Below, in pieces: positions 14,001 through 30,362 of a stretch of 64,000 nucleotides of DNA. Below the pieces are notes generated by a model. The model ran no database searches and was not told the origin of the DNA. It saw nothing but the letters and a program-made list of their open reading frames with translations. Position 1 is the stretch's first letter; each line of letters starts with the position of its first letter. The DNA lies in assembly GCF_003790525.1 (NCBI RefSeq), contig NZ_CP033635.1. One strand, written 5' to 3'. The translations under genes and the position numbers were made by a program. This DNA comes from Escherichia coli. GTDB lineage: Bacteria; Pseudomonadota; Gammaproteobacteria; Enterobacterales; Enterobacteriaceae.

Positions 14001-17000
14001 GGGGCAAAACAGGCCGGCTCTTTGCTGATGAAAACCTCCGGGACAGGCAGCCGTGGTATCTGGGCCACAGGGAAAGGGAGCAATGTCCTGGCTGATGCTG
14101 GCAGTGATTTCCAGATCCTGGGCGCTCAGGCTCAGGGATTATATGTAACTGGTGGTGCGACAGCGACGCTGAAACAGGGGGCATCAGTTAACCTTGTAGG
14201 GGATGGCGCTGTTGTCGCGGAAGTTGACGGAAATGAATACGCTCTGGATGGCAGTATTACACAAACGAATACTGGCTCGGTTATTACCAATGAGGCAGAT
14301 ATCTCTTCGCCGCTGAATAATGCCAAGGGCTTTATTACGCGTAATCAGGGACTGTTGATTAACAGCGGCAACATTGATTTCACTACCGGTACAGATAATA
14401 TCGGCGTCTGGGTTGATAATGGTCGTTTTGAAAATACAGGAAGCCGTATAGCGGTCAATGGCGTTGCATTATTTGTTGAAGGTGAACACGCTCAGATTAC
14501 CAGCACGGGAGGGGATATCGTCGCTGTGGATGGTGAGGCTGCCATTAAGCTGGGGGCGGGCGCGTCACTGAACCTGGCAGGGAGTGGCCTGGGAACGATC
14601 GAAGGTCAGAAAAATGCGCATGGCATCCTGCTGGATACAGGGGCTGTGGGGCTGGTTATTGATGGTGCGAAAATCAATGTTAATGCTGCAGGTGCGGTCG
14701 GTCACGGGATTGAGAACCGTGCAGAAATTGAAGGCATTCAGTTAACCAATACGACTGAAATTAATGTGGCTGATGGCATTGGTGTGCGAACTTCTGCTTC
14801 TCTGGCCAAGACCAACAGCGGCACTATTAATGTAGACGGCAGTGGAATTGCACTGGCGTTCCAGAAAGCTGACGGAAGTGAAACCGATAATAACCTGGAT
14901 ATGTCTGACTCCGGCGGATTAGTCATTAATCTGAAAGGCACGGGCGGCACGGGTATTTTCGCCAACACTAAAGATGGTGCTGTCGTGAAGAGTGGTGCAA
15001 GTGTCAATGTTACACAGGCCGATGGCGGTTCCGCTCTGGTGGTTAACAATGCGGCCAGTGAAGTGGTTCAGAGCGGTAATCTCATCTCTGCTTCTCTGAG
15101 TCATGCCGTAGTGGATGCTTCAAAAGCACAGTCCTTTACCAATAAAGGTCAGATTAAAGCTGCGTCCGCCACCGGGACTGCAATGGCGTTTGATGACGCC
15201 GTGAATACCACCGTACTGAATGACAGCGGTGCTGAAATTCAGGGGGTTGTGGCTCTGAACGGCGGTGATAACACATTCACCAATAAAGGCAGTATTACCG
15301 GAACCGTCAGTGCAAAAGAGGGTAACAATACATTTTTATTTGATGATGGCAGCATACTGACAGGAGAAGTGGCTGCAGGAAATGGCAATAACAATGTAAC
15401 GCTCAATGGTAAGGCTCATGTTGATAAGGTTACTGCCGGTACCGGGAAGAACACCTTCACCATTAAAGGCGAAGGGGCAACCTGGAACCTGCTGGATGGC
15501 GGGCAGGGAGATTCTGATTCCCTGATTTTTGATAACGCCATTCATACGCTGGATTCTGCTGTAAAACTACGGAATTTTGAACATGTCGGGCTGAAGAACA
15601 GTTCGCTTGTCACTCTGAAGGAAGCTCTTGTGCTGACCGATGGGGGGACCGGCCCGGGTTCCGTCGATATTGAATCGGGCAGCGAACTGGCCATTATTCC
15701 CGCAGTTGCAGGCAACTTTACCTTTGATCCACTGTTAACAGGCAAAGGAACACTGTCTGCCCGTCTTGATGCCGACACATCTGCTTTTGAATTCAGCCAT
15801 AACGTCGGGGATCAATTTGCCGGAACTCTGAAGCTGGGTACCAGTAGCTTTGCTCTGGAAGGGCTGAATACGAGCGGGTTAACCCATGCAATGCTGATGT
15901 CTGAAACCGGGAATATCACAACGGTTGGCTCCGGTGTTCAGCAGATTGGCGGTCTTGGGTTCAATGGCGGAACGCTGATTTTTGGTTCCGTTATGCCGGG
16001 CGATACCATTGCCAGCAACAGTATTGAAACCTCTGCTGCAGGTACGCTGGATATCCGGGGGAAAGGCACAATTCAGGTCACCATGCCAGATGAAGTGATT
16101 AATGATATTCCGGCTGTTGATACCCGTAAGAATTTGCTGGAGCAGGATGATGCGCAGACCCTGGTCACACTGGTGAATGCAGCGGGTACCGTCACCGGTA
16201 CTGGCGGGCAACTGCAACTGGTGGATGAAAACGGGCAGGCTATTTCTCACAGTCAGACGTTTGATGTCACTCAGGGCGGTGAAGTTGTAGCTCAGGGAAA
16301 TTATGACTATAAGCTGCTGGGAAGCTCCGACGGTGTTAAAGGTGACGGACTGTACATAGGCTATGGGCTGAAGTCGCTGGATTTACAGGGAACCGGTGAT
16401 AAAGCGCTGGTGCTGACACCGAGAGCGAATGCCCAGGGACTGCAGACAGATCTTGGTGCACAGTTAACGGGGGCAGGGGATCTGGCCATCGAAGCTGCGG
16501 GGCAGGTTGTCACACTGTCTAACGGCGGTAATAACTACACCGGGGATACGCTGGTGCGCAGCGGCACACTGCAGATGGCAAATGATAATGTGCTTGGCGC
16601 TACAGGTAGCCTGAACGTTGCCAGCAATGCCGTCTTCAGAACAGACGGATACAGCCAGACGGTGGGTGCACTGCAGACAGAAACGGGAGCGCACATTCAG
16701 CTTGATAGCGGTAGTGTACTCACGGTCAGCGGCACGCAGCGTCAGCCGGGCGATGATAATGGTGGCATCATTGAAAACAATGTGCTGACCGGAGACGGTA
16801 CGCTGGCTGTCACGGGCAGCAATCTGACGGTACATGGCACCAATATCGGGTTCACCGGTAATGTCAGCCTTACCCGGGGTTCGCTGGTTGAAATGAACGG
16901 CGCACAGGGGCTGGGAAGCCAGGGCTCCATCAGCTTTGAAAGCCTTAATGATCGCCTGGCGATTGATATCGCCGACGGTAGCGGAGTCAGCAGTAACCTG

Positions 17001-18932: not shown

Positions 18933-18939
18933 TCACACA

Positions 18940-18965
18940 GTGGCAGGAGGGGACCTCCTGCCACC
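18940..18965 (+). terminator. Strong hairpin 3' of the autotransporter
   Basis: TGGCAGGAGG-GGA-CCTCCTGCCA perfect 10-bp stem just after the stop; no clear T-run, so the terminator call is tentative. Confidence 0.35.
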
Positions 18966-18979
18966 TCAGGGTTGTCATA

Positions 18980-19510
18980 ATGAGTTCTGTAATGAAATTT
19001 TCTGTTGTTAATGCAGTAGTGCTGCTGTTGCTGATTGTACTTACTGGTGTTTTTTATATGAAAAAGTCAAAAGAAATTGCAGTTGTTAATATCGATGCTA
19101 TTTATAATCAGTCTGCCGCCGGAGACATGGCCAGAAAACATCTGAATGAGGTTAAGAGTATTCTTGAAAAAGGATATGAGGATGCGCAAAAAGTATTCGC
19201 AGATAACGCGAATAAAGAGGCGCTGCTTCTTGATGCCAGACAAAAACTGGAACGACAATATGTTATTGAGGAAAATAGCGCAAAAATGGTGTTATCCCGT
19301 GCGATAGATAATGCTATAGGCACATGGAGAAAAGACAATCCTAAAAATATTGCCGTATTGTCTTCAGGTGTTGTGCTTGCGCATAACGAGTCAGCTGATA
19401 TCACCAAAGAAGTCATGACTCTGGTTGAAAAAGAAAATCTGGTTTTTAATAAATTACCCAAAGTGGAAGTGCACAATAAGAATGAAGAGAAACCAGAACA
19501 AAGTAAGTAA
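18980..19510 (+). CDS. Skp/OmpH-like periplasmic chaperone paralog
   Basis: 176-aa ORF with signal/TM segment; IAVVNIDAIYNQSAAG and NIAVLSSGVVLAHNESADITKEVMTLVEK resemble Skp IAIVNMGSLFQQVAQ and [29 protein letters not shown] from memory. Confidence 0.55.
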   Translation: MSSVMKFSVVNAVVLLLLIVLTGVFYMKKSKEIAVVNIDAIYNQSAAGDMARKHLNEVKSILEKGYEDAQKVFADNANKEALLLDARQKLERQYVIEENSAKMVLSRAIDNAIGTWRKDNPKNIAVLSSGVVLAHNESADITKEVMTLVEKENLVFNKLPKVEVHNKNEEKPEQSK

Positions 19511-19966: not shown

Positions 19967-20183
19967 ATCTTAATTATTATTATGTTGATTTATATGTAGT
20001 TTATTTTTGATTTTTTGTTTTTGTACCCGTTTTGTGCCCGTTTTATTCGATTCCCAATTTAAACTTCGATTCTAGAAAGGTGAGTAGGGGAGGTTATCAT
20101 TTCATGTATCATTATTGTAGACACAGAATAATTACTCGCCTATCCTCACTGTAGACACACAATAGATACAGGAGTTAACCCAC

Positions 20184-20432
20184 ATGCGCACACAGGTTGT
20201 ATTGCAAAAATGGGGTAATAGCATTGCCCTTCGACTAACGGGAAACCTTAAAACCGTTCCGGGGTTTTCAGTGGGTGATATCGTCAACGTTGAAATTAGT
20301 GAAAAGGGGCTTTTTGTAGAAAAGCCTGCACGCCGTCGCCTGAGTGAAGCCGAATTACTCGCCGGGATAACGCCAGTTACAGCGCACGCGGACGAAATTG
20401 CCACCCCATTCAATGAGGAGGTTGATTACTGA
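20184..20432 (+). CDS. MazE/PemI-family antitoxin (AbrB/SpoVT fold)
   Basis: 82-aa ORF MRTQVVLQKWGNSIALRL...; stop overlaps the toxin start. Confidence 0.75.
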   Translation: MRTQVVLQKWGNSIALRLTGNLKTVPGFSVGDIVNVEISEKGLFVEKPARRRLSEAELLAGITPVTAHADEIATPFNEEVDY

Positions 20433-20776
20433 TGTTTGTACCTAAGCGTGGTGATATTTGCTGGCTGGATTTTGAGCCGCAGAAAGGAAAAGAGAGCGGA
20501 AAGTATCGCCCGGCACTCATACTATCCCATGAGCAATATAACCGACTCACCGGGCTTGTCATATGCTGCCCCATAAGTACGAGCATACGAAATGCTCCCA
20601 CAGAAGTTCCGGTAACAAATCTGGACGCCCCCAGCGTGGTAGCAACCACACTCATTCAAACCCTTGACTGGCGTCAGCGGAAAGCGCGCTTAATCACAGA
20701 GGCAGAAGATGGGGTATTTAATGATGTGCTTGAAAGAGTCATTACCCTGATTGGTGGAGAGCATCTGCTTAAGTAA
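20432..20776 (+). CDS. MazF/PemK-family toxin (endoribonuclease)
   Basis: 114-aa ORF MFVPKRGDICWLDFEPQKGKESGKYRPALILS..., PemK/MazF-like N-terminus; coupled to the upstream antitoxin. Confidence 0.75.
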   Translation: MFVPKRGDICWLDFEPQKGKESGKYRPALILSHEQYNRLTGLVICCPISTSIRNAPTEVPVTNLDAPSVVATTLIQTLDWRQRKARLITEAEDGVFNDVLERVITLIGGEHLLK

Positions 20777-20819
20777 AAGGAGGGCTGAGAAGCCCTCAAC
20801 GTTACCAGAAATTTCCTTG

Positions 20820-22091
20820 CTATTCTTTCCAGTCAATCCCATCCAGTAAGCACCCTGCCTCATATTGCCCAACAACCCAGTCAAGATTGCAGGACTCATA
20901 GAAAGCGAGGCGATTATACTGTGGCTCGTTTTTTACCAGACCACGAACGGAGCCGCGTTGCCAGTACAGGCACAGATTGGCAAGAGGTGTGATCAGCACA
21001 GCATTGTCCGGGAAAAATGGAACGGTCACAGCCGGAAGATTCCCCAGCACGGGCTTTTTAATGATTTCCTCGTTAAGCAAAATTTCCTGATTCATCTGCG
21101 ATGGATCAAGACGGTTTATCAAAGGCCATTGTTTACGGACCAGAGTATTGTGACTGCATACGGCCACAATGCCTTCCTGCCACTGTTCATCAATCATGGA
21201 TTGCCAGGCATCCAGAACAAGTGCATCTATTGTATGGTGTGTACCGCGTGTATTGCTTGTCGGCGATGAAACAGAAAGACCGCTGATAACCCTTCCCGCT
21301 GCTTCGTTTCGAAACTTCTGCAACCATCCGACGCCGCAATCGTCACGGCCCGGATATGTTTCAGGATCAGATTGATCGGCATAGTGTGTGCCGTTAAAAC
21401 CAATCTGAATTAAATCCAGCCATTTCCGGCGTTCAAAAGCGGCACGGGCGCTTCCTTCAAGACCATTTGCGGACGCGTGAGCATCGACATTGTCGTAGCT
21501 CAACGCAAAATCAAAATTAACCTGCTCGCAGCGGTAGCCTCTTGAAACCAGTGAATGCGCCTGTAGTGGCGAACGGCGCTCGTGAGGTGGCGATGTACGT
21601 GCCAACGGCCGGGAAGCGTCTACCAGCACAACCTGACCTGATATATCCGTAACAGGCACGGGGGTTATTTCAGCAAGGAAATTTGCCTGCCATCCACTGG
21701 CAAGCGTTGCACTCTGGCGGGGAACGGGTTCAACTTCTGACGAATAGCGCGCAGTATCACCGGAAAAGTGCAAATCCTTCGGATGCTTTCCGGTTATCGA
21801 CTCGATAGCGCAATTGAAAACCATCTGAGACTGTTGATTTCGTTGTGATACAACATAATCAGCAGTGCAATTATAACACTCAATGCCGTCGTTATTACCC
21901 CCACCGCTTGCAGTATGCAGGGTGTGAAGCTCAAGCTCACGCTCCAGTTTTTGATATTCATTGTCCAGCGCGCGACGCGTCTCATCGCTTATGCTTGCTG
22001 TGTTTGCTTTCAGGCGATTCCGGGACATTAACTCCCTGAGTCGGCTCACTATATCAGCGCCGTGCAAATGTGAAATATTCAGACCGCCCAT
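20820..22091 (-). CDS. Hypothetical protein B of a two-gene cargo operon (about 423 aa), no recognisable family
   Basis: Start taken at the internal ATG (MGGLNISHLHG...) that overlaps the upstream gene stop as TAATG; the longer 470-aa ORF is read as an artefactual extension. Confidence 0.6.
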   Translation of the reverse strand: MGGLNISHLHGADIVSRLRELMSRNRLKANTASISDETRRALDNEYQKLERELELHTLHTASGGGNNDGIECYNCTADYVVSQRNQQSQMVFNCAIESITGKHPKDLHFSGDTARYSSEVEPVPRQSATLASGWQANFLAEITPVPVTDISGQVVLVDASRPLARTSPPHERRSPLQAHSLVSRGYRCEQVNFDFALSYDNVDAHASANGLEGSARAAFERRKWLDLIQIGFNGTHYADQSDPETYPGRDDCGVGWLQKFRNEAAGRVISGLSVSSPTSNTRGTHHTIDALVLDAWQSMIDEQWQEGIVAVCSHNTLVRKQWPLINRLDPSQMNQEILLNEEIIKKPVLGNLPAVTVPFFPDNAVLITPLANLCLYWQRGSVRGLVKNEPQYNRLAFYESCNLDWVVGQYEAGCLLDGIDWKE

Positions 22092-22801
22092 TACTGCCAC
22101 CCCCGGCAGAGTTCTCTGCCCTCCGCAAGGTCGCGCATTTTTTCTGGATTCTGTCGCGCCGCGCTCCATTGTACAGGTGAAGGGGCGTTCCTGATTGCGT
22201 GGCTTACCGAATCCGGCAGTTTCTCCGGGCAATAACGAAGCGGATTGGAGGCATCGCTCTCAATATCGTTAATCCGGCCGCGAATCAGCCCGACACTTTC
22301 AACAATATCTGCCATTTTCAGTGTTTCACATATTTTCTTTTCTGCGTTATACAGCGGCTGGCCAAGCAGCTCACATAAACCACGAATCAATAGCAGAGCA
22401 GGGGTCAGCTCGTTAATCAGTCCGGGAAGTGCTTTTGCAAATATCTCTGCCCGCAACTTATTATCAATGCTTTGGTAAGCACAGCCAGCCTCTGCCGCGT
22501 TATAACGACACTCCAGTAACCTGATGCGCGCCTCATCATGCAATACCCGCAGACGCTCAAGATTTTCTCGCGCCACACCCGCCTGAATGCATAATTTTGC
22601 GGAGGCTTCCGTTTTTGCGCCCAGCGCAGACAGGATTGAGTTCTGCCAGTCACGTTCGAGAGACTCCAGCTCCCCTTTCGTCTGTTCGATAGTCGCTTCC
22701 AGATTGGTGATTAATGATTCCTGTTCGCTGAGTTTTGCCATGGCCGTATCAAACTGTGCTTTACATGCCTGATGCCTGGCGCTTGCCTGAGTTATATCCA
22801 T
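22091..22801 (-). CDS. Hypothetical protein A of the two-gene cargo operon (236 aa), predicted coiled-coil N-terminal half
   Basis: Heptad-like, charge-rich N-terminus (KLSEQESLITNLEATIEQTKGELESLERD); no known motif recognised; first gene of the operon. Confidence 0.6.
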   Translation of the reverse strand: MDITQASARHQACKAQFDTAMAKLSEQESLITNLEATIEQTKGELESLERDWQNSILSALGAKTEASAKLCIQAGVARENLERLRVLHDEARIRLLECRYNAAEAGCAYQSIDNKLRAEIFAKALPGLINELTPALLLIRGLCELLGQPLYNAEKKICETLKMADIVESVGLIRGRINDIESDASNPLRYCPEKLPDSVSHAIRNAPSPVQWSAARQNPEKMRDLAEGRELCRGWQ

Positions 22802-22965
22802 TGTTTGCTCCTGTAATACATTTTTTACTTACGCCCATTTTTTCCATATTGCGTAATACATTCCAGCCGATTTTGTTCTCGTAATACGCTCACAATACTG
22901 TTGTATTACGCTTTCTTATATCGCGGGTGTTAAATCCCGGTATAAGCAATCAGGGAGGCAACACG

Positions 22966-23199
22966 ATGAAAAAACAAAAGAAAATGCGATACGTATTACG
23001 CTGTATTCGTATCCCGCACGAAATCGACCATAAAATAAATCAGATATGTAAGGACAGAGAGATGAACTACTCCCAGTGCGTCAGAATGTTTATCTGTCAG
23101 GGAATTAAGGCCGGGGAAACGCAGGAAGAAGACCGCAACGGGCGCAATGTAGCGGGAGATGTGTGGGCCTGGGCAAATGACCAGAACTACACGACGTAA
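22966..23199 (+). CDS. Small hypothetical protein, possibly a ribbon-helix-helix regulator
   Basis: Start taken at MKKQKKMRYVL...; divergent from the cargo operon; beta-strand then two helices by eye. Confidence 0.35.
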   Translation: MKKQKKMRYVLRCIRIPHEIDHKINQICKDREMNYSQCVRMFICQGIKAGETQEEDRNGRNVAGDVWAWANDQNYTT

Positions 23200-23249
23200 T
23201 ACAGAAATAACGTAGCCGGTTACACTCGCTGGCTGCGTTATACAAATCA

Positions 23250-23432
23250 CTATGAAGTTTTCAACTTCCTGCGCTTAGTGATGCGTACAAACGACTCAAG
23301 CGTACAAAAACAAGCCCCACACTCAATATTACTGCACTGGTAATACGTTTTGTAGATGTTTTGTTCGTGCTCTTCCAACGAACGACTACGGGTTCGGGCT
23401 GAAGCGCCACAGGCCGGGCAAGGGAAAGACAT
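23250..23432 (-). CDS. Ogr/Delta-family zinc-finger late-gene activator
   Basis: 60-aa ORF MSFPCPACGASARTRSRSL...YYQCSNIECGACFCTLESFVRIT aligns with P2 Ogr (MFHCPLCQHAAHARTSRYI...YHQCQNVNCSATFITYESVQRYIV). Confidence 0.8.
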   Translation of the reverse strand: MSFPCPACGASARTRSRSLEEHEQNIYKTYYQCSNIECGACFCTLESFVRITKRRKLKTS

Positions 23433-23793
23433 ATCACGCTCCTCTTACTGGTGTGAAATTTGACCTATTATATCTCCTGCCGCCCCCTCTGGCTGTATCA
23501 AATAAACCCGCAGCAGTCGCCGCGTATTACGGACGGACGCACCGTTCCCATGCTCACTCGTCACATTCCCCGTATCAGTTCTCTCTTACCGTAAGAACGG
23601 CTCTGGCTGGCGATAAAACTAACCCGGTCGGGCATTCCCGCAGTCTTTAGAGAAAATGTAATTTACCCCCTGAAACGTGGGCTGTTCCCCCGTCACCTGC
23701 GCGCGAAAAACTCACCGTTTTTTGTGCACGCACGAAATCGCCCTCCGGGTGCGCCAGTACTGGGCCGGATGGGCAAAAAGTTACTCTAAAAAA

Positions 23794-23820
23794 TTGTGCA
23801 AATTTGTGCACTTTTGTGCA
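23794..23820. promoter_or_regulatory. Three direct TTGTGCA repeats at 10-bp spacing (operator-like)
   Basis: TTGTGCA at 23794, 23804 and 23814, with a fourth copy at 23722; helical phasing suggests a DNA-binding protein array. Confidence 0.35.
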
Positions 23821-24042
23821 GATGAACAATAGCGTGAAAAAGAGTGCTTTTGAGAGATTTTTTATGGCAACTGCGCCGCGTGTATTACGTTTTTTACCAT
23901 CCCCGCCGCGCATGTACATACTTCATTTTTCTGCCAGACAACAGGGCAACTCCCCGTGACTGACAGCCCCAAAAAATCAATGATTGATGTTGCATTTTTG
24001 TTAAAGGTTAGACCAGTTGTTTTAGGGCTCTGCCTCATAATC

Positions 24043-24366
24043 CGGTGGGGGGTGCGCAAAGCGGTTACAACGGTTACAACACTCAAAAACACCACTTAAC
24101 AGCATGATTTTAATGGATATTGTTTGTAACCGCTTTGCGGTTACACTGCGGTTACAACGGTTACAGGTTTCAAAAAGCACTTTATTATCAATCAATTAAA
24201 AACTTAACCTGTAACCGCCTGTAACCTAACAAAACGGTTACATGTAACCGCGTTGTAACCGCTTTTATAACTCATCGGACCAGTTATAATATATTGATAT
24301 ATAATACAAAAATAAGTAATTTTAAATTTGTAACCGTTGTAACCGCTTTGCGCACCCCCCCCCAAA
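24043..24366. repeat. Iteron cluster flanked by a ~30-bp inverted repeat (candidate satellite origin)
   Basis: GGGGGGTGCGCAAAGCGGTTACAACGGTTAC (24045-24076) and its reverse complement (24330-24363); at least 8 GGTTACA/TGTAACC copies in both orientations in between. Confidence 0.7.
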
Positions 24367-24611
24367 CTTTAGCGCGACCCTTTAAAATGTTAATTAAACT
24401 CACTTACTCTGTATCTCTCTCGTTAACTCTCTGTTATTGAAATGTATCTCTCCACTGTTTCACTCTTTCTGATAATCAGGGGAAGCAAAAAATTGATGGC
24501 GGCACTACTGCAATATGGCCACCATTGCATTGCTGTTACCGTTGGTTCTGGCCAACAAAAAAGGTCAGCGGGAAACTGACCTCTTTTGCTGTGAATGCGG
24601 CGTTCTGCGGG

Positions 24612-25616
24612 TTACTCTGCTGGCTCTTTTTCTTCGGTGATCACTATGTTGGCTACCGGGTTAAATCTCATGGCATCTGCCAGATAATCCGGTGCAAAAT
24701 GTGCGTATGCCATAGTCTGCTGAATTGTCGCATGCCCAAGGATTTTTTGTAGCGCAAGAATGTTGCCACCGTTCATCACAAAGTGACTGGCGAATGTATG
24801 CCGCAATACATGCGCAGCCTGCCCCCTCGGTAAATCGGGTTTTATTTTTTTTAATGCCCGGCAAAACTCTCTGTACTTCACATCAAACAGTCGCCCGGTT
24901 TCTTTTGTTTTTACGGCATCGCATATTTCCTGCGACACAGGCACCGTTCTTTTTCTACCGTTTTTGGTTTCCAGAAACGTTATTCTGTTATGAACTATTT
25001 GCTCTCCATGCAATCTGCTGGCCTCACTCCAGCGGGCTCCGGTACAAAGACACAAGAGCGCAACCCTTCGTTGATCTCCATTCAGCCCGTCAAGCAACAA
25101 TGTGACCTCGTTTTTTGATAAAAAGGCCATTTCCCGCTGCTTTACATAAAGAACAGGAATACCACGAACCGGATGCTCTGCATCCCACAAACCGATCTTT
25201 TTCAGGGCTGTAAACATCCCCGATAATCTGTTCATGTATCTGTTTGCTGAGGACGGCTTTAATCCTTCCGCAATTTTCTGCGATCGCCATGCAATGATTT
25301 TTAATTTGTTGAGTTCTGCCGCAAACATGTCAGCTCCAAGCTCATTAATAATTTTGCCAAGTTGCTGTTTATCCGTGTTTGCCTTTCGCCTGTGCTGACC
25401 GTGATAGACCCACCACAATTCCAGTAAATCGCTAAGCGTTCTCCGGTCGCGATAGCCCTGTATAAACTCGCGCTTTTCGGCGTTCGCTATGATGTACCGT
25501 TCAGTTGCTGTAGCTATCGATTTTTTGTCAAATATTCTTCTGATGCGCTTCCCTTTACGTCCGCATGGCCTGATATCGAGCAGCCACCGCCCATCATGCA
25601 TCTTTCTGATCGGCAT
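24612..25616 (-). CDS. Tyrosine recombinase (phage integrase family, XerC/D-like)
   Basis: Catalytic region ARWSEASRL ... HVLRHTFASHFVMNGGNILALQKILGHATIQQTMAYAHF; ATG at 25616 with GGAGG upstream, directly after the primase stop. Confidence 0.7.
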   Translation of the reverse strand: MPIRKMHDGRWLLDIRPCGRKGKRIRRIFDKKSIATATERYIIANAEKREFIQGYRDRRTLSDLLELWWVYHGQHRRKANTDKQQLGKIINELGADMFAAELNKLKIIAWRSQKIAEGLKPSSANRYMNRLSGMFTALKKIGLWDAEHPVRGIPVLYVKQREMAFLSKNEVTLLLDGLNGDQRRVALLCLCTGARWSEASRLHGEQIVHNRITFLETKNGRKRTVPVSQEICDAVKTKETGRLFDVKYREFCRALKKIKPDLPRGQAAHVLRHTFASHFVMNGGNILALQKILGHATIQQTMAYAHFAPDYLADAMRFNPVANIVITEEKEPAE

Positions 25617-25618
25617 GT

Positions 25619-28288
25619 TTAACTCCCCTCCTTGTAACTGAATATCCGGCATTTCAGTACTTCCGGCTCTCTGGCCTCGGCGACCCCTCTTCCGGCGTTT
25701 GCCTGTCTGGAGACCTCACTACGAATGGTTTTGCGGCCTGTCAAAGGTCGGGAACGTCCGGCTGCGAGCAACTCAATCATTTCGCGGTCAGTTCGGATCT
25801 CCACGCGGTGAATAGCGGCAGCCTGTGCCAGTTGCGGAATACTGATAGCAATCCCCTCGCGGCATCCCTTGCCGTAGTGGTTTACACCGTATTTTGTTAT
25901 GCCGTCCAGATAGTCGAACGCCTCCCAGAACGCTATTACTTCCGGCAAGTCATCCGTTACCGCTTTAACTTGTTCCGCTGCCATTCGTTCCAGTTCCTGG
26001 CATGTGGCATTAAGCCATTCATCCGGGATATCAATAACGCATTTCAGCGCCCTGACCAGCGCAATAAGTTGCGCGTGATTTTTGGCAATACGGGGATGGA
26101 GAATATTTTCGCAACCGCAAAGGCGGGTCGTTTCAGGCTCTGAGAGCGCCAGAAACATTTCCATAATTGCCCGTTCACGGCTGACTGCCCGATGAATAAA
26201 CCCTGACACCTTCTCAACGGGGTAGAGTTCCAGTCGTCTCGCCGCCAGCCGGGTATCAGACGAGTGGCGCTTTTTATCGGTATATATGCGAATCAGTCGC
26301 TCAATAATTGCAAGTGAGGCGTTTACCCTGGCATTCTGTGCAATCACGATAGCGCCCTTAAAATCCGGGTCATAGGTGTTGTTATTGTTGGTCTTAACGC
26401 CACGAACGCCGATACCGCCGCCGTTATAGAGGCTTTTCAGGTTATCGAAGTCAAACGCACCTCTTTTTTGCGCATTGCCTCCCCTGTCTGCTTCAATCAG
26501 AACAACAGGTAATCCGGCGACCTGTCCAAAGGTGCGCTTCCAGCCCGCCTCTGATCCTTTGGTTGGATCAACGCCTTCATAGTTGTCACGACCGCACAAC
26601 CGCCAGCAAAAATCAATCAATGTTGATTTACCCGTTCCGGGCTCCCCGGTGACTTCAAGGAAGGGGAAGGATTCTTCTTTATCCCGGATTTGTTCGCTGA
26701 ACAGGGAGCCCAACCAGAAAGCCAGGGTAATAATTCCTTTTTCACCAAAAGCCAGCCAGAGATCTTCCACCCAGGACTCTGTAAACTCATCCGGTTTTTT
26801 GTAGTTAATCTGTAATGTGGGTTTTTCGCTTAATGGTTTTGCGTTTATGCCATCAATTTCAAAATAATCTTCGTCATTGATTTCATAAGTTTTTCCCTTG
26901 TAAACAGCAATATCATTAAACAGCCATGCCCCAATCGCCTTGTTGTATCCGATAAAATCCTGACCAATAACCTCTTTTATTGCGGGAAGGTCATTTTTTA
27001 TTAATGCGTCAAGGTGCGCAGTTGTTCCGGTATAAATGCCGCCTTTTGCCACATGCAACAGGCGTTTTTTAAATTCAGATGCGGATGTCAATTGTCCTGA
27101 TGTAAAGGTGTTTTTCACCGTAGCACCATCCGGGAACGTAACACGGAAGTAATACCATGCTTCATCCGTGTCATTATTTCTAATGTAATAAAGCGGCGCT
27201 GGGTTACAGTTTGCGATTTCTTTTACTGCGCCAGATTCCTTAAGTGCAATTTTGCGCGCTTCATCCTCATCAACACTTCTCTCATTCTTGGCACGCTCTA
27301 CAGCTTTCATATAGCGCTCAATGTCCAGTTTGAACCAGAAAACACGGTTATCAAAAGTAAAATGAAATTCCTTCCGCTCACGAAAGGAAAATATTATTAG
27401 CGCCTTATCTCTCGGAGATTTCGCCAGCAATAAATCACCGTAATGACGGTATCTTTTCACATCATGGCCACGCAGCTTTCCGGCGATGTGTAAATCATTC
27501 CAGTCGCGTTTATTGTTGTTTTTACCTGGCAACGCCGCTGCCGTTCTCCAGCCGTCTTCGGCGCTGCGTTCTGCATGTTTTTTCGCGTAACGCTCACCCG
27601 CACGCCCGTTATCCAGCGCCCACACAATAACCGGACGGGGATTATCCCCGCACAGCTTCGCCAGCTCTTCCAGCGCCTTATCAGGGTAGTTCACGGCAGA
27701 CATGACAGAAACGGCCGCAATGCCATTCTGGTTAAGGCTGATGGCATCAAAGATGCCCTCACAAATCCAGATTTCTTTGGCCTTGCTTAAATCTGCTCCC
27801 GGATAAGCCCACCACAACCCCTTGTAGCTGCCGGAAAAATTCGCCTTGCGCGCGAAGCGTCCCGGTCGGTCTATGATGCGCTCCCACCACACGCCGTCAG
27901 CCAGCGTAAAACGCACAGTAGCGGCCTGTTCGCCGTTTTCCTTGTCCTGGTATCGCTCCTGAGTAAATGCGCCCTTCAGTGGCCCCACAGCAATATTGCG
28001 CGCCTCCTGAAGATAAGCTGCCACCGCTGCATATGGCTCGTCTTTCGTGCTGATATAACGATCTGACCATGATGAAAACACATCCGGGTAAAGTTCTTTG
28101 GTCAGCAGGTCTGTACCGCATTTATTTTCGCGCCCACAGTGTACGATGTACGGCCTTTCAAGGCTGGTAAACAACTCTTTCTTTCCACATTGCGGACAAA
28201 CACCATACCGGAGGTAGTTATTTTCTTCTTTGAAGTTGTAATCACGGATAAGACGGTTAATAATCTCTTTTCTGATGTCAGATTTCAT
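25619..28288 (-). CDS. Primase-helicase (P4 alpha / PICI Pri-Rep-like)
   Basis: N-terminal zinc finger CPQCGKKEL...HCGRENKCG, TOPRIM-like region, Walker A GEPGTGKST; start at the ATG with GGTGGAG SD rather than the upstream GTG. Confidence 0.85.
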   Translation of the reverse strand: MKSDIRKEIINRLIRDYNFKEENNYLRYGVCPQCGKKELFTSLERPYIVHCGRENKCGTDLLTKELYPDVFSSWSDRYISTKDEPYAAVAAYLQEARNIAVGPLKGAFTQERYQDKENGEQAATVRFTLADGVWWERIIDRPGRFARKANFSGSYKGLWWAYPGADLSKAKEIWICEGIFDAISLNQNGIAAVSVMSAVNYPDKALEELAKLCGDNPRPVIVWALDNGRAGERYAKKHAERSAEDGWRTAAALPGKNNNKRDWNDLHIAGKLRGHDVKRYRHYGDLLLAKSPRDKALIIFSFRERKEFHFTFDNRVFWFKLDIERYMKAVERAKNERSVDEDEARKIALKESGAVKEIANCNPAPLYYIRNNDTDEAWYYFRVTFPDGATVKNTFTSGQLTSASEFKKRLLHVAKGGIYTGTTAHLDALIKNDLPAIKEVIGQDFIGYNKAIGAWLFNDIAVYKGKTYEINDEDYFEIDGINAKPLSEKPTLQINYKKPDEFTESWVEDLWLAFGEKGIITLAFWLGSLFSEQIRDKEESFPFLEVTGEPGTGKSTLIDFCWRLCGRDNYEGVDPTKGSEAGWKRTFGQVAGLPVVLIEADRGGNAQKRGAFDFDNLKSLYNGGGIGVRGVKTNNNNTYDPDFKGAIVIAQNARVNASLAIIERLIRIYTDKKRHSSDTRLAARRLELYPVEKVSGFIHRAVSRERAIMEMFLALSEPETTRLCGCENILHPRIAKNHAQLIALVRALKCVIDIPDEWLNATCQELERMAAEQVKAVTDDLPEVIAFWEAFDYLDGITKYGVNHYGKGCREGIAISIPQLAQAAAIHRVEIRTDREMIELLAAGRSRPLTGRKTIRSEVSRQANAGRGVAEAREPEVLKCRIFSYKEGS

Positions 28289-28336
28289 ATATAAAACTCC
28301 ACCCCACTGCACCTTTTGCCGTGGGGTTTTTATTAA

Positions 28337-28636
28337 TTACTCGTTACTTATTGCTTTGGCAATCCCGGCGGTTTCAGCACTATGCCATGAAAAAATTCCG
28401 CCAGAAGTATGCATTCCTGACTTAATCACTCGTAATTCCCGATAAAGAATGTTAGTTAATGATTCCATTTCATTAATTTGCACTGGCATTCTCTCACTGG
28501 TATTAATTTCACCTGTCAATGCTGAAATGAGCGCAATAACATTTATTACATCTTCAAGATTCTCAATGGAATCTTCCGTGAAAAAACCAGCGTATTCTTT
28601 TTTGTATATATTGCGGATATTCTGATTTTCAGACAT
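28337..28636 (-). CDS. Hypothetical satellite protein
   Basis: 99-aa ORF in the same-strand gene array upstream of the primase. Confidence 0.4.
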   Translation of the reverse strand: MSENQNIRNIYKKEYAGFFTEDSIENLEDVINVIALISALTGEINTSERMPVQINEMESLTNILYRELRVIKSGMHTSGGIFSWHSAETAGIAKAISNE

Positions 28637-28703
28637 AAAAACTCCCCGACCCGTTAAGATCGAAATATAAATTTAATTCAGTTATCAGTTGGTAATTCGG
28701 TAA

Positions 28704-28922
28704 TCAGTCGGAAAGCTGCGTCACCTTCAACGCTTTGAAATGTGTCATTCCCAGCTCTTCCAGCCCTTCGGCTGCGCGGCGTATGGCTTCGCCCGGTCCC
28801 GTTCCGTATACCGTTGCATGTGCATGTTTGGTTAACCCACGTTTATTAACGGCATAACCCAACACAAAGAAACGTTTTTCACCACTGCCATTATTTTTAC
28901 GGGATATTGAACGGCTTTTCAT
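28704..28922 (-). CDS. Hypothetical satellite protein
   Basis: 72-aa ORF; stop overlaps the next gene. Confidence 0.4.
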   Translation of the reverse strand: MKSRSISRKNNGSGEKRFFVLGYAVNKRGLTKHAHATVYGTGPGEAIRRAAEGLEELGMTHFKALKVTQLSD

Positions 28923-29134
28923 TTCTTCACCCTTACCACTGATGCTGTGAGTTCTTCTGGCAATTGATATTTCGGCGCAATTTCTTCCGTATACCTGATA
29001 GCGTCCCTTGCCGCTTTTCCTTTTGATTTATATTTATATGTGGTGCGGTAGTTTTCTTCCTCTCCTGTTACCACATTACGCAATTTTATATGAATCTCGT
29101 ACATCGTTACCCCTCCATGATTTTTACTGCGCAT
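28919..29134 (-). CDS. Hypothetical satellite protein
   Basis: 71-aa ORF in a compact overlapping array. Confidence 0.35.
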   Translation of the reverse strand: MRSKNHGGVTMYEIHIKLRNVVTGEEENYRTTYKYKSKGKAARDAIRYTEEIAPKYQLPEELTASVVRVKK

Positions 29135-29289
29135 TTGTGGGTTAATCGCCCCTGTTTGTCATTGCGGGAATATGCCATACGACAGGTATCACGCCATGCA
29201 TCGTCATAAGTCGGATATTCCCGGGAATGAATCATCTGGCGAACGTCGCCGTTCTGGTAGTTAATCAGGGTGATAAGGAGCTTAAACAT
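29107..29289 (-). CDS. Hypothetical small protein (about 60 aa)
   Basis: ATG at 29289 (MFKLLITLINYQNG...) preceded by GGAGG; the longer 145-aa ORF is read as an extension. Confidence 0.35.
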   Translation of the reverse strand: MFKLLITLINYQNGDVRQMIHSREYPTYDDAWRDTCRMAYSRNDKQGRLTHKCAVKIMEG

Positions 29290-29719
29290 GGCACGCCTCC
29301 CGGACACGGATACGGGCAACAAAGACCAGACGGGATGCCGGAAGCAGGGCGCGCGCTTCGCGCTCACTGGCAGCGGTAACGGTATGAAGGCGGATATTTT
29401 TACCGTGGCACTGCATAAAGCGCCAGATAAAATCAGGGCGTGTTGATATAGCCATTTTGGCGGCTCCTTGATTAAGTTTACGGAGTCTCGCCAGCACGCT
29501 GTCAAACATGGTGGCGGGACGTAACAGGGTTGACAGACTGGCAATCAAGGAACCAGCGAGCGCAAAGGCTCCCCCATTACGCCCCGCCATAATACGGGGT
29601 AGGGTGGAATTACGGGCACAAAAAAACCGCATTACGGAAATATAGCGGCTACCCGCTTGATTGTTCAGGCTGTCAAACCCGGCACCCGCTTTATGAGGTG
29701 CGGGCAAACGATACGCCAT
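29282..29719 (-). CDS. Hypothetical satellite protein (about 145 aa)
   Basis: Start taken at MAYRLPAPHKAGAGFDSL...; same-strand array between AlpA and the primase. Confidence 0.4.
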   Translation of the reverse strand: MAYRLPAPHKAGAGFDSLNNQAGSRYISVMRFFCARNSTLPRIMAGRNGGAFALAGSLIASLSTLLRPATMFDSVLARLRKLNQGAAKMAISTRPDFIWRFMQCHGKNIRLHTVTAASEREARALLPASRLVFVARIRVREACHV

Positions 29720-30362
29720 GACAAAAAAGCGAGTCAAGCAATATTGCAAATTATTTTTGCGCAATTGCGCTGAGTGATTGATTTTTAAGAGTAAAAAAGT
29801 CATAATCATTTCTGCCTATTGTTTCTTATTGTTGATTTCAGGTGCACTAAATGCACATCCTTGACTGGTTGGCTCGCTGGCTTTAGCGAGCTTCTTTTTT
29901 GCTCTGCTGCCAATACCCGGCCTCCTTCCCTCACATGTAGTCATGTGCTCATTCCAGTCAGGTGGATAATGCTGTATTACCGGACATCCGGTTATGATGT
30001 TTAAAGCGTTTGTTTGTTTATGCCACGTGGAGAATATACCCCCACCGCCATTACTTGTATTTATCATAACAGTTCACCCAATTCGGTTAATGTAACCGGA
30101 ATAACTCAATTTCATACACTGTAAATAAATGCTGATTTTAAACTTAGCTCCTTGGAATATATTTCTTACGTGTGACGCACAGGTGAAAATATCCCTCTGA
30201 TAGTCCATTTTCTTTTATTTTGTCACATCTGTTTACTCCGGTTCCCTTAACAAGGGTAGAGCATCTTTTAAACCATGAATGCATCTTCGGTTAAGTGATG
30301 TTTCTTATTGTATGAAATATTTAGGCGCATATCGCGCCATGCTGACTATAAAATGAAAATAA

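What the first reader, a model, noticed from the sequence alone, without database searches (positions are those of the whole stretch)
28337..29719. Compact array of five small overlapping genes between AlpA and the primase
Tightly packed same-strand ORFs (60-145 aa) with overlapping stop/start codons, typical of phage or satellite regulatory and helper-interference genes. None is recognisable by eye, and some could be helper-phage hijacking factors.
Basis: inference. Interest (0 to 1): 0.25.

Follow-up and report, generated by a model that had tools for sequence, protein, structure and literature searches.

The report
Satellite RNA immunity switch plus small genes
The "first gene" of this five-gene cluster is mostly a known kind of antisense-RNA switch (as in phages P1 and P4) that gates a short cell-division-inhibitor gene, four real but uncharacterised small genes and the replication primase of a phage satellite: a well-preserved but ordinary control region.

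Summary
All features lie on the minus strand, in a satellite island at tRNA-Arg (argW). Five same-strand ORFs exist as described, but the upstream "145-aa gene" is not an ordinary gene. It spans a promoter, an isrK/a1b1-type leader, a C4/CI-type antisense RNA (Rfam 74.6 bits; P4's own CI scores 74.9) and its second target, which lies over the ribosome-binding site of a 57-aa Icd/Kil-like ORF. Its N-terminal 88 codons show no amino-acid constraint (pN/pS 0.87). In 13 loci the antisense loop matches its own downstream target by 6-10 Watson-Crick bases. In the 11 P1-type loci it also matches the upstream target (7-8). Non-cognate pairs usually reach 3-5. This satellite family alone has six loop combinations. 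The other four ORFs (60, 61, 72 and 99 aa) are real genes (pN/pS 0.21-0.49, Shine-Dalgarno sites, in-frame indels), present wherever the region was recovered in 15 close relatives. ORF60 and ORF72 persist beside a 52%-identical primase. ORF61 is probably a duplicate of ORF60. ORF99 is fast-evolving and sits where distant relatives carry a P4 epsilon-family helper derepressor, without detectable homology to it. Gene order mirrors the P4 left operon. Verdict: a new member of a known kind. Functions of the four small proteins remain unknown, and any helper-hijacking role is untested.

The parts
29708..29737 (-). Promoter-like site TTGACT-18 nt-TATCGT (analogue of P4 PLE and P1 P51b), internal to the long ORF. 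Predicted transcription start near 29701.
   Evidence: The hexamer positions line up with promoter-like hexamers in PICI and P1-like relatives in alignment A6. The isrK model match starts at 29701.
29620..29701 (-). isrK / a1b1-type leader RNA. It carries the first target pair (b1 TTGACAG 29670-29676; a1 CAATCAAG 29656-29663) and ends in a hairpin followed by a U7 tract.
   Evidence: Rfam isrK 50.6 bits (gathering score 50) and c4-a1b1 30.8 bits (below its gathering score of 46.7). Complementarity to the C4 loop and linker. Fold.
29507..29594 (-). C4/CI-type antisense RNA. The a' loop is CTTGATTG (29542-29549) and the b' linker is CTGTCAA (29530-29536).
   Evidence: Rfam RF01695 74.6 bits (gathering score 45), E 2e-13. 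Folding energy -45.8 kcal/mol, z -5.9. P4 CI scores 74.9 bits with the same model.
29464..29505 (-). Second target pair: b2 TTGACAG (29499-29505) and a2 TAATCAAGGAG (29464-29474). a2 includes the Shine-Dalgarno site of the Icd-like ORF.
   Evidence: The local hairpin that sequesters GGAG folds at -17.2 kcal/mol, z -2.7.
29282..29455 (-). Icd/Kil-like ORF, 57 aa. It is nested in frame at the 3' end of the long open frame 29282-29809.
   Evidence: NF033153 55.7 bits (cut-off 25). pN/pS 0.29. The C-terminus of P4 'cI 137 aa' matches the same model at 73.9 bits.
29282..29809 (-). It is kept open, but its N-terminal part shows no amino-acid constraint.
   Evidence: Each of 13 sequences with the full region has one frame with 0 stops, against 3-11 stops in the other two frames. 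Leader pN/pS is 0.87, 0.64 and 0.96 in the three frames. The P4 eta/kil logic is described in PMC10111431.
29107..29289 (-). ORF60, a small protein. Its start overlaps the Icd-like stop by 8 nt. It is conserved next to this primase type.
   Evidence: pN/pS 0.47. It has 8 clusters at 90% identity. Homologues of 63-64 aa sit in L024, L025 and L026, directly upstream of ORF72 homologues.
28919..29104 (-). ORF61, a probable diverged tandem duplicate of ORF60.
   Evidence: hhalign A7 against A5 gives probability 84%, E 7e-6, with residues 1-40 aligned in register. pN/pS 0.45 and an in-frame 3-nt indel. It is absent from L024-L026.
28704..28922 (-). ORF72: a basic, disordered N-terminal tail followed by a compact beta-beta-alpha-beta domain.
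28337..28636 (-). ORF99: a helical protein with a hypervariable centre (residues 33-56), sitting in the 'epsilon slot' immediately upstream of the primase.
   Evidence: It has 50 clusters, named hits from E. coli or Salmonella only, at 55-97% identity, with an in-frame 5-aa indel. pS is 0.38, against 0.11-0.17 for neighbouring genes; pN/pS is 0.49. AlphaFold2 pLDDT 71.5, all helical.
28301..28327 (-). Conserved GC-rich hairpin followed by GGAG and a U-rich stretch, between ORF99 and the primase start.
   Evidence: -17 kcal/mol, z -3.4, 0 of 200 shuffles fold as well. It is conserved in relatives, and the G-tract after it varies in length.
25619..28288 (-). Toprim primase with a P-loop, 889 aa. 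It is the last large gene of the operon.
   Evidence: Pfam Toprim_2 and Toprim_3; phrog_1139 E 2e-297. It is 52% identical to the L024 primase.
30363..30584 (-). AlpA-family regulator/excisionase upstream of the cassette.
   Evidence: PF05930 61.8 bits. It is 35% identical to P4 ORF88.

Best explanation
The region is the early, replication-control operon of a P2-type-helper satellite, built like the P4 left operon. A promoter inside a long open frame (about 29737-29708) makes a leader carrying target sites a1/b1. Some transcripts probably stop at the isrK-type hairpin and U7 tract. Read-through transcripts contain a C4/CI-type RNA (29507-29594). By analogy with P1 C4 and P4 CI, this RNA is processed out. 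Its loop (a') and linker (b') then pair with a2/b2 just downstream, where a2 covers the Shine-Dalgarno site of a 57-aa Icd/Kil-like ORF. Blocking that ribosome-binding site, with the polarity or termination that follows, keeps the downstream genes silent while the satellite is integrated. Those genes are translationally linked: ORF60, ORF61 and ORF72, then ORF99 and the primase. The upstream a1/b1 copy acts as a cis or trans competitor, as IsrK does in Gifsy-1. Transcription from upstream (AlpA or a helper-activated late promoter) that allows translation of the long frame would override the block, as eta does in P4. Shown here: RNA family membership, target complementarity with covariation, coding constraint, gene order and conservation. 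Inferred: processing, repression, polarity and override. For the proteins, ORF60/61 and ORF72 are accessory factors that travel with this primase type. ORF99 is the best candidate for a helper-directed factor, as a positional analogue of P4 epsilon or Cnr; that assignment on its own is about 25% likely.
For: Rfam matches C4 at 74.6 bits and isrK at 50.6 bits. P4 gives 74.9 and 60.8 bits with the same models in the same order. The Icd-like model NF033153 matches both the window ORF and the C-terminus of P4 'cI 137 aa'. In 11 loci, including a P1-like plasmid, the a' loop and b' linker each find complements at fixed offsets upstream (-69, -82) and downstream (+2, +33, over GGAG), although a' differs between loci. 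In the 13-locus matrix, cognate strict Watson-Crick matches to the downstream target are 6-10 nt (9 nt in the window). Cognate matches to the upstream target are 7-8 nt in the 11 P1-type loci. Non-cognate pairs usually reach 3-5 nt. Exceptions are loci with the same or a related loop and a few cross-matches of 6-9 nt. The leader shows no coding signal (pN/pS 0.87, variable columns 20/22/23), while the Icd-like part scores 0.29. The RNA stretch is about 80% identical to P1-like plasmids, where no CDS is annotated over it. The long frame is open in all relatives and the promoter lies inside it, as PMC10111431 describes for P4 eta. Gene order AlpA, RNA/Icd ORF, 8-nt overlap, small ORFs, primase matches P4. 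All four small ORFs have Shine-Dalgarno sites and purifying selection in frame, and matched in every one of 15 relatives where the region was recovered (ORF99 only weakly in L016, where the recovered homologous stretch ends). ORF60-like and ORF72-like genes, followed by a PF25738 protein, precede a 52%-identical primase in L024 and L025.
Against: No expression, processing or repression data exist for this element. The c4-a1b1 model scores below its gathering threshold (30.8 against 46.7), and the isrK match only just passes (50.6 against 50). The isrK-type terminator was not picked up by the simple terminator scan. The four small proteins match no family of known function in Pfam, NCBIfam, PHROGs, PADLOC or PDB. 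ORF99 shows no homology to P4 epsilon, to Cnr, or to small ORFs of another PICI. The 67-nt and 48-nt gaps and the hairpin before the primase could mean separate regulation of ORF99 and the primase.
Confidence: 0.75

Rival explanations
1. All five are ordinary protein genes, as the first reader and PGAP assume. On this view the 145-175-aa product (Ash/Eta/'CI repressor'-like) is a functional regulatory protein along its whole length.
For: The frame is open in all relatives and in P4. PHROG 'transcriptional repressor/regulator' families and Pfam Phage_ASH match translations of this stretch. P4 eta is reported to be translated from a late transcript (PMC10111431).
Against: The 88 N-terminal codons show no amino-acid constraint (pN/pS 0.87; variable columns evenly spread at 20/22/23). 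The same DNA scores 74.6 bits as a structured RNA whose loops covary with two targets. The predicted promoter lies inside the ORF. P1-like plasmids keep the RNA without any ORF annotated over it. The database matches probably descend from the old P4 'cI protein' annotation.
Confidence: 0.12
2. The cassette works mainly as an IsrK-type activator, as in Gifsy-1. The long transcript is folded shut, and the short terminated leader RNA acts in trans to open it and switch on translation of the Icd-like ORF and downstream genes. On this view it is not a C4-type repressor that confers immunity.
For: The leader reaches the isrK gathering score. The Icd ribosome-binding site lies in its own hairpin. In Gifsy-1, IsrK activates orf45-anrP by binding a nucleotide-conserved 'orf45' that yields a processed RNA of about 80 nt (PMC4825925).
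Against: The downstream partner here is a replication operon, as in P4, not an antiterminator. The a2 complement covers the Shine-Dalgarno site itself, which is the P1 repressor geometry. The two modes are not exclusive and may be two faces of one switch.
Confidence: 0.3
3. The four small proteins are helper-interference, hijacking or anti-phage factors, not parts of the satellite's own replication control.
Against: No PADLOC match and no homology to epsilon. ORF60 and ORF72 travel with the primase across 52% divergence, which suggests a role tied to the replicon. The fold matches are generic; the best is ribosomal protein eL20.
Confidence: 0.25
4. The small ORFs are chance open frames in a transcribed leader and are not genes.
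For: They are short, and ORF60, ORF61 and ORF99 have no database family.
Against: Each has its lowest pN/pS in its own frame (0.21-0.49), a Shine-Dalgarno site and in-frame indels. They recur in 15 relatives and, for ORF60 and ORF72, at 39-47% identity in distant loci. ORF72 gives a confident fold.
Confidence: 0.03

Closest known systems
Satellite phage P4 left operon and immunity region (PLE, seqA, CI RNA, seqC, eta/kil, epsilon, orf151, cnr/orf106, alpha)
   Same: It has the same order: AlpA-type gene (P4 ORF88), a long ORF spanning the RNA cassette and ending in an Icd-like domain, an 8-nt overlap with the next small gene, further small genes, then the primase. The same Rfam models hit in the same order with near-equal scores. 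The promoter lies inside the long ORF (PMC10111431).
   Different: The RNA sequence is of the P1 subtype, not the P4 subtype, and the leader-to-C4 spacing is shorter. None of ORF60, 61, 72 or 99 resembles epsilon, ORF151 or Cnr. The primase is only distantly related to alpha (E 4e-4). The long ORF is not adjacent to alpA; a 550-nt gap separates them. The element carries a P2-family capsid gene, and the ORFs tested gave no Sid or Psu match.
Phage P1/P7 immI operon (c4 antisense RNA, icd, ant)
   Same: The RNA stretch is about 80% identical in DNA to P1-like plasmids. The a1/b1, C4, b2/a2 layout is the same, with a2 over the ribosome-binding site of an Icd-like ORF. Loop variants would be expected to define heteroimmune types, as for P1 versus P7 (my own knowledge of Citron and Schuster 1990/1992, which the paper library does not hold).
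   Different: Downstream cargo is a satellite replication operon, not the Ant antirepressor (a Rha-family gene in L006). The Icd-like ORF is shorter (57 aa against 74 aa).
Gifsy-1 isrK-orf45-anrP locus (Salmonella)
   Same: An isrK-class leader with a terminator lies upstream of a nucleotide-conserved, amino-acid-variable 'ORF' that yields a processed RNA of about 80 nt, and translation is coupled to the next gene (PMC4825925).
   Different: Regulation there is described as activation by the short RNA, and the cargo is an antiterminator. Neither has been tested here.
P4 epsilon (Pfam PF25738, Derepression protein family)
   Same: ORF99 occupies the same slot: after the ORF72 homologue and immediately before the primase. 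In L024 and L025 that slot holds a PF25738 protein (92 bits). The sizes are similar (99 aa against 95-111 aa).
   Different: There is no Pfam match even at E 10, and hhalign gives probability 0.2%. Membership is not supported; only a functional analogy is proposed.
Gram-negative PICIs with C4/isrK hits in their 'Bro zone' (PMC10111431)
   Same: The integrase, AlpA/HTH, RNA cassette plus Icd-like ORF, small ORFs, primase layout is shared. C4 and isrK hits were found in three other E. coli islands, L007-L009.
   Different: Those islands have other primases or helicases and other small ORFs. Only the Icd-like ORF is shared.

Membership tests
C4/CI antisense-RNA immunity cassette (Rfam RF01695 with RF01394/RF03163; P1 immI, P4 immunity) | A structured RNA of about 77-88 nt that matches the C4 covariance model above its gathering score | tested here: met
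   74.6 bits against a gathering score of 45, full-length match 1-87. z -5.9.
C4/CI antisense-RNA immunity cassette (Rfam RF01695 with RF01394/RF03163; P1 immI, P4 immunity) | An upstream target (a1/b1, or seqA) complementary to the loop and linker of the RNA | tested here: met
   8-nt and 7-nt complements at -69 and -82 that covary with the loop across the 11 P1-type loci. isrK scores 50.6 bits (gathering score 50), but c4-a1b1 scores only 30.8 (gathering score 46.7).
C4/CI antisense-RNA immunity cassette (Rfam RF01695 with RF01394/RF03163; P1 immI, P4 immunity) | A downstream target (b2/a2, or seqC) that covers the translation start region of the next ORF | tested here: met
   b2 at 29499-29505. 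a2 at 29464-29474 includes AAGGAG, 8 nt before ATG 29455. It covaries in every locus examined.
C4/CI antisense-RNA immunity cassette (Rfam RF01695 with RF01394/RF03163; P1 immI, P4 immunity) | The RNA is processed from the operon transcript and represses downstream genes, conferring immunity | not testable with these tools
   This needs northern blots or RNA-seq and reporter fusions.
Icd/Kil-like small protein (NCBIfam NF033153) | Match to the family model above its cut-off | tested here: met
   55.7 bits against a cut-off of 25 for residues 9-51 of the 57-aa ORF.
Icd/Kil-like small protein (NCBIfam NF033153) | Inhibits host cell division, or kills the cell, when expressed | not testable with these tools
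[quoted passage not shown] | Integrase and AlpA | tested here: met
   Pfam Phage_integrase with Arm-DNA-bind_3, and Phage_AlpA at 61.8 bits.
P4-like satellites (integrase, psu, delta, sid, alpha; PMC8628076) | Delta (Ogr/Delta zinc-finger activator) | tested here: met
   ORF 23250-23432(-) matches PF04606 at 43.9 bits.
[quoted passage not shown] | Alpha-type primase-helicase | tested here: inconclusive
   It has a Toprim domain and a P-loop in the same layout, but only local similarity to P4 alpha (E 4e-4). It belongs to phrog_1139.
[quoted passage not shown] | Epsilon (PF25738) | tested here: not met
   No PF25738 match in any ORF of the cluster. ORF99 profile against the epsilon family gives probability 0.2%.
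[quoted passage not shown] | Sid and Psu capsid-size and decoration proteins | tested here: not met
   The late-region ORFs tested gave no Sid or Psu match. Instead there is a P2-family major capsid protein (PF05125, 248 bits) and a 236-aa coiled-coil ORF. Not every ORF of the island was scanned.

The most novel reading that the evidence does not exclude
ORF99 is a non-homologous replacement of P4 epsilon. On this reading it is a small helical protein whose hypervariable centre (residues 33-56) sets which P2-like helper repressor, or other helper factor, the satellite can neutralise. The ORF60/ORF61/ORF72 set are obligate partners of this 889-aa primase. Together with six RNA loop combinations in one satellite family, this would describe a satellite lineage that diversifies its self-immunity (RNA) and its helper specificity (ORF99) independently.
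Probability: 0.2. Interest if true: 0.5.

Novelty: new member of a known kind. Interest (0 to 1): 0.3.

Why it matters
There are three practical points. First, genome annotation (PGAP 'Icd-like protein, 173-175 aa', PHROG 'transcriptional repressor', Pfam Phage_ASH) still reads an RNA immunity cassette as a protein. This window is a clean example of how to correct that. Second, the loop and target covariation gives a ready-made set of predicted heteroimmune RNA types within one satellite family, which could be tested for cross-immunity. Third, the locus defines two small protein families (ORF60/61 and ORF72) that travel with a widespread satellite primase, and it names a candidate (ORF99) for helper derepression in satellites that lack epsilon. 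None of this changes current understanding of satellites.

Tried and rejected
1. Pfam, NCBIfam, PHROGs and PADLOC scans of ORF60, 61, 72 and 99 found nothing meaningful. The one exception is that three remote ORF72 relatives match phrog_3672, which has no known function.

2. tblastn of ORF99, ORF72 and an ORF60 homologue against 50,697 phage records gave no real hit.

3. Profile searches against PDB sequences for ORF60, ORF61 and ORF72 gave nothing below E 0.05.

4. The ORF99 AlphaFold2 model has pLDDT 71.5, and only one of the five models was confident. Foldseek against PDB gave no hit with E below 1, only generic helical bundles.

6. My by-eye idea that ORF60, 61 and 72 are three paralogues was only partly right. 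ORF61 against ORF60 is supported (probability 84%). ORF72 against either is not (probability 0.1%; BLASTP).

7. A by-eye resemblance of ORF99 to small helical ORFs of another PICI (L009) and to P4 Cnr was rejected (probabilities 0.2-0.5%).

8. BLASTP of all window ORFs against P4 epsilon, ORF151 and ORF106 gave nothing significant.

9. Distant primase relatives at 43% identity (L020-L022) have no Rfam C4 or isrK match, and none of the four small ORFs found a significant match among their ORFs.

10. A search for a second copy of the tRNA-Arg 3' end, to fix the island's far border, found none at 3 or fewer mismatches over 22 nt.

11. The 67-nt gap between ORF72 and ORF99 has no significant structure (z +1.3).

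12. The original P1 papers (PMC196329, PMC312442) are not held in the paper library.
Full report
CONTEXT. All relevant features are on the minus strand. The window carries an island beside tRNA-Arg(CCT) at 32636-32710, next to yfdC and mlaA. Read in the direction of transcription, the island contains:
- an integrase (31195-32499);
- AlpA (30363-30584; PF05930 61.8 bits);
- a 550-nt gap;
- the region of the finding;
- a Toprim primase of 889 aa (25619-28288; phrog_1139, E 2e-297);
- a second tyrosine recombinase;
- an iteron field;
- an Ogr/Delta gene, a coiled-coil ORF and a P2-family capsid gene;
- MazEF.
The stretch 20100-29940 is 95.8% identical to an island in E. coli strain 600468 that uses a different integrase and regulator module at another chromosomal site. 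The 1.5-kb finding region is present in 107 of 5426 complete E. coli genomes by megablast. PGAP annotates it there as 'Icd-like protein' plus four hypothetical proteins.

CHECKING THE OBSERVATION. Five same-strand ORFs exist at the stated coordinates.
- Real overlaps are 8 nt (Icd-like/ORF60) and 4 nt (ORF61/ORF72).
- The 28-nt overlap of the '71-aa' ORF is an artefact of taking the longest ORF. ATG 29104 follows GGAGGGG and lies 2 nt after the ORF60 stop. PGAP uses the equivalent start in relatives.
- ORF72 and ORF99 are 67 nt apart, and ORF99 and the primase are 48 nt apart.

THE UPSTREAM '145-aa GENE' IS AN RNA CASSETTE PLUS A SHORT ORF.
- Rfam finds a C4 antisense RNA at 29507-29594 (74.6 bits, gathering score 45), an isrK-type RNA at 29620-29701 (50.6 bits, gathering score 50) and a sub-threshold c4-a1b1 match.
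- Only the last 57 codons match a protein family (Icd-like NF033153, 55.7 bits).
- I compared the window with 13 other distinct relatives. The leader, read in the ORF frame, has pN/pS 0.87 (0.64 and 0.96 in the other frames) and evenly spread variable columns (20/22/23). The Icd-like part has pN/pS 0.29.
- The RNA stretch is about 80% identical to P1-like plasmids, where nothing is annotated over it. In those plasmids it precedes icd and a Rha-family gene in the position where P1 has ant.
- The frame nevertheless stays open in every relative: 0 stops, against 3-11 in the other two frames. The promoter-like site TTGACT-18-TATCGT (29737-29708) lies inside it.
- That is the arrangement PMC10111431 describes for P4: a constitutive promoter inside eta, seqA and CI RNA, a nested Kil, and translation of full-length eta from an upstream late promoter that overrides termination.
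- P4 itself, run through the same tools, gives C4 74.9 bits, isrK 60.8 bits and a1b1 44.1 bits. Its old 'cI gene product (137 aa)' ends in the same Icd-like domain (73.9 bits).

EVIDENCE THAT THE RNA PAIRS WITH ITS TARGETS.
- In the window, the loop CTTGATTG (29542-29549) and linker CTGTCAA (29530-29536) are complementary to CAATCAAG and TTGACAG upstream (29656-29663 and 29670-29676). They are also complementary to TTGACAG and TAATCAAGGAG downstream (29499-29505 and 29464-29474).
- The downstream a2 site includes the Shine-Dalgarno site, 8 nt before ATG 29455.
- Across 11 loci (six from this satellite family, four copies from three other E. coli islands, and one P1-like plasmid) the loop sequence differs. 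In each locus both targets change with it, at the same offsets.
- In a 13 x 13 matrix, cognate strict Watson-Crick matches to the downstream target are 6-10 nt (9 nt in the window). Cognate matches to the upstream target are 7-8 nt in the 11 P1-type loci.
- Non-cognate pairs usually reach 3-5 nt. The exceptions are loci that share the same or a related loop, and a few chance cross-matches of 6-9 nt.
- For P4 and L026 the upstream target lies farther away than the stretch I scored, so their upstream values are low.
- This satellite family alone shows six a'/b' combinations, which would be predicted heteroimmune types.
- The Icd start region also folds into a hairpin that sequesters GGAG (z -2.7). 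This is compatible with the activating mode described for IsrK in Gifsy-1, where 'orf45' is conserved in nucleotides but not in amino acids and yields a processed RNA of about 80 nt (PMC4825925).

THE FOUR OTHER ORFs ARE REAL GENES.
- Each has a Shine-Dalgarno site and its lowest pN/pS in its own frame: ORF60 0.47, ORF61 0.45, ORF72 0.21, ORF99 0.49.
- Indels are in frame, apart from one frameshifted ORF60 copy in L015.
- Homologues were found in all 15 loci with a primase at least 89% identical. For ORF99 the match in L016 is weak, because the recovered homologous stretch ends there.
- All are narrow families. ORF99 has 50 clusters at 90% identity, with named hits only from E. coli and Salmonella. 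ORF72 has 15 clusters, including Yersinia. ORF60 has 8 clusters.

ORF61. It aligns in register with the ORF60 family (hhalign probability 84%, E 7e-6) and is absent from the distant loci. It is probably a lineage-specific tandem duplicate of ORF60.

ORF99. Its ends are conserved and its centre is hypervariable, including a 5-residue indel. Its synonymous divergence (0.38) is two to three times that of its neighbours. The model is all helical (pLDDT 71.5). It occupies the slot that holds an epsilon-family protein in L024 and L025, but shows no detectable homology to epsilon, to Cnr, or to small ORFs of another island.

HOW IT MOST LIKELY WORKS.
- Shown: the RNA family membership; the complementarity and covariation of the loop with two targets, one of them over the Icd ribosome-binding site; the tight linkage of the Icd-like ORF, ORF60, ORF61 and ORF72; the conservation of the whole array with the primase; and the P4-like gene order.
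- Inferred from P1 and P4: the RNA is processed from the operon's own transcript. It blocks Icd-like translation. Through polarity or termination it also keeps the small genes and the primase silent in the integrated state. The leader copy of the target modulates this. Transcription from upstream, after helper or AlpA activation, overrides it.
- The four proteins have no assigned function. ORF60/61 and ORF72 probably serve this replicon. ORF99 is the best candidate for a helper-directed factor.

COMPARISON AND NOVELTY. This is a new member of the P4/P1-type RNA immunity system, in a satellite that meets only part of the P4-like definition of PMC8628076. Integrase, AlpA and Delta are present. 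The primase is only distantly related to alpha. Epsilon was not found, and the ORFs tested gave no Sid or Psu match. PMC10111431 had already noted that C4 and isrK models hit Gram-negative PICIs. What this analysis adds is the target covariation within one family, the evidence that the long ORF is unconstrained in sequence yet kept open, and the definition of the small-gene families and their synteny. Interest is modest.

Noticed in passing
window 20100-29940, especially 20820-22801 and 23250-23432: The satellite core (95.8% identical to an island in strain 600468) encodes its own P2-family major capsid protein (PF05125, 248 bits; a 423-aa ORF with an N-terminal region of about 130 residues that lies outside the PF05125 match). 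It also has a 236-aa coiled-coil ORF that overlaps the capsid gene, and an Ogr/Delta activator. None of the ORFs tested matched Sid, Psu or epsilon. It may be a capsid-forming satellite that depends on a P2-type helper. A literature search found no description of one.
   Followed up: partly
window 24044-24363: A dense field of CGGTTACA-type repeats in both orientations: three direct-repeat families and eleven inverted pairs, including 36-nt arms that are 97% complementary. It lies between the second recombinase and the Ogr/Delta gene and is a candidate replication origin for the primase.
   Followed up: partly
window 28289-28336 (hairpin 28301-28327): A conserved GC-rich hairpin (-17 kcal/mol, z -3.4) followed by GGAG and a U-rich stretch lies between ORF99 and the primase start. 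The G-run after the hairpin differs in length among relatives, from GGGG up to ten G, which changes the Shine-Dalgarno context of the primase.
   Followed up: partly
window 29778-29900, plus strand: A promoter-like site (TTGATT-17-CATAAT) and a terminator-like hairpin with a T-run (29871-29900) could give a small RNA of about 85 nt. It would be divergent from the cassette promoter and antisense to any transcript that enters the long ORF from alpA. The block up to about 29940 is conserved even in relatives with a different integrase and regulator module.
   Followed up: partly
window 29940-32500, compared with L001, L004 and L005: The integrase plus regulator module is exchangeable. Relatives with the same core sit either at argW with an AlpA-type 73-aa regulator, or between hpt and gcd with a 106-aa HTH protein and an extra ORF of about 350 aa. 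The breakpoint is near 29940, or near 29810 in L014, L015 and L018.
   Followed up: partly
window 24612-25652 (minus strand): A second tyrosine recombinase (346 aa; Int_N and Phage_integrase domains) begins 34 nt before the end of the primase gene, so it appears co-transcribed with the replication operon.
   Followed up: no
window 29456-29719, and the annotation of L026 and L008: PHROG families labelled 'transcriptional repressor/regulator' (6928, 995, 821), Pfam Phage_ASH and PGAP 'ash family protein' match translations of the RNA cassette. These protein families probably descend from the old reading of the P4 CI RNA region as a protein.
   Followed up: partly
window 28809-28826 (ORF72 codons 33-35) and relatives P0125 and P0126: An in-frame His-Ala repeat (CATGCA units) expands from HAHA to HAHAHAHA in some ORF72 relatives.
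   Followed up: no
window 20184-20776 (plus strand): A MazE/MazF-type toxin-antitoxin pair (PemK_toxin, 87 bits) sits at the far end of the satellite core.
   Followed up: no
window 11019-19510 and 34946-36193: A 2637-aa autotransporter-like ORF and a Skp-like ORF lie just beyond the satellite. An AT-rich 415-aa ORF of unknown function lies beside mlaA.
   Followed up: no
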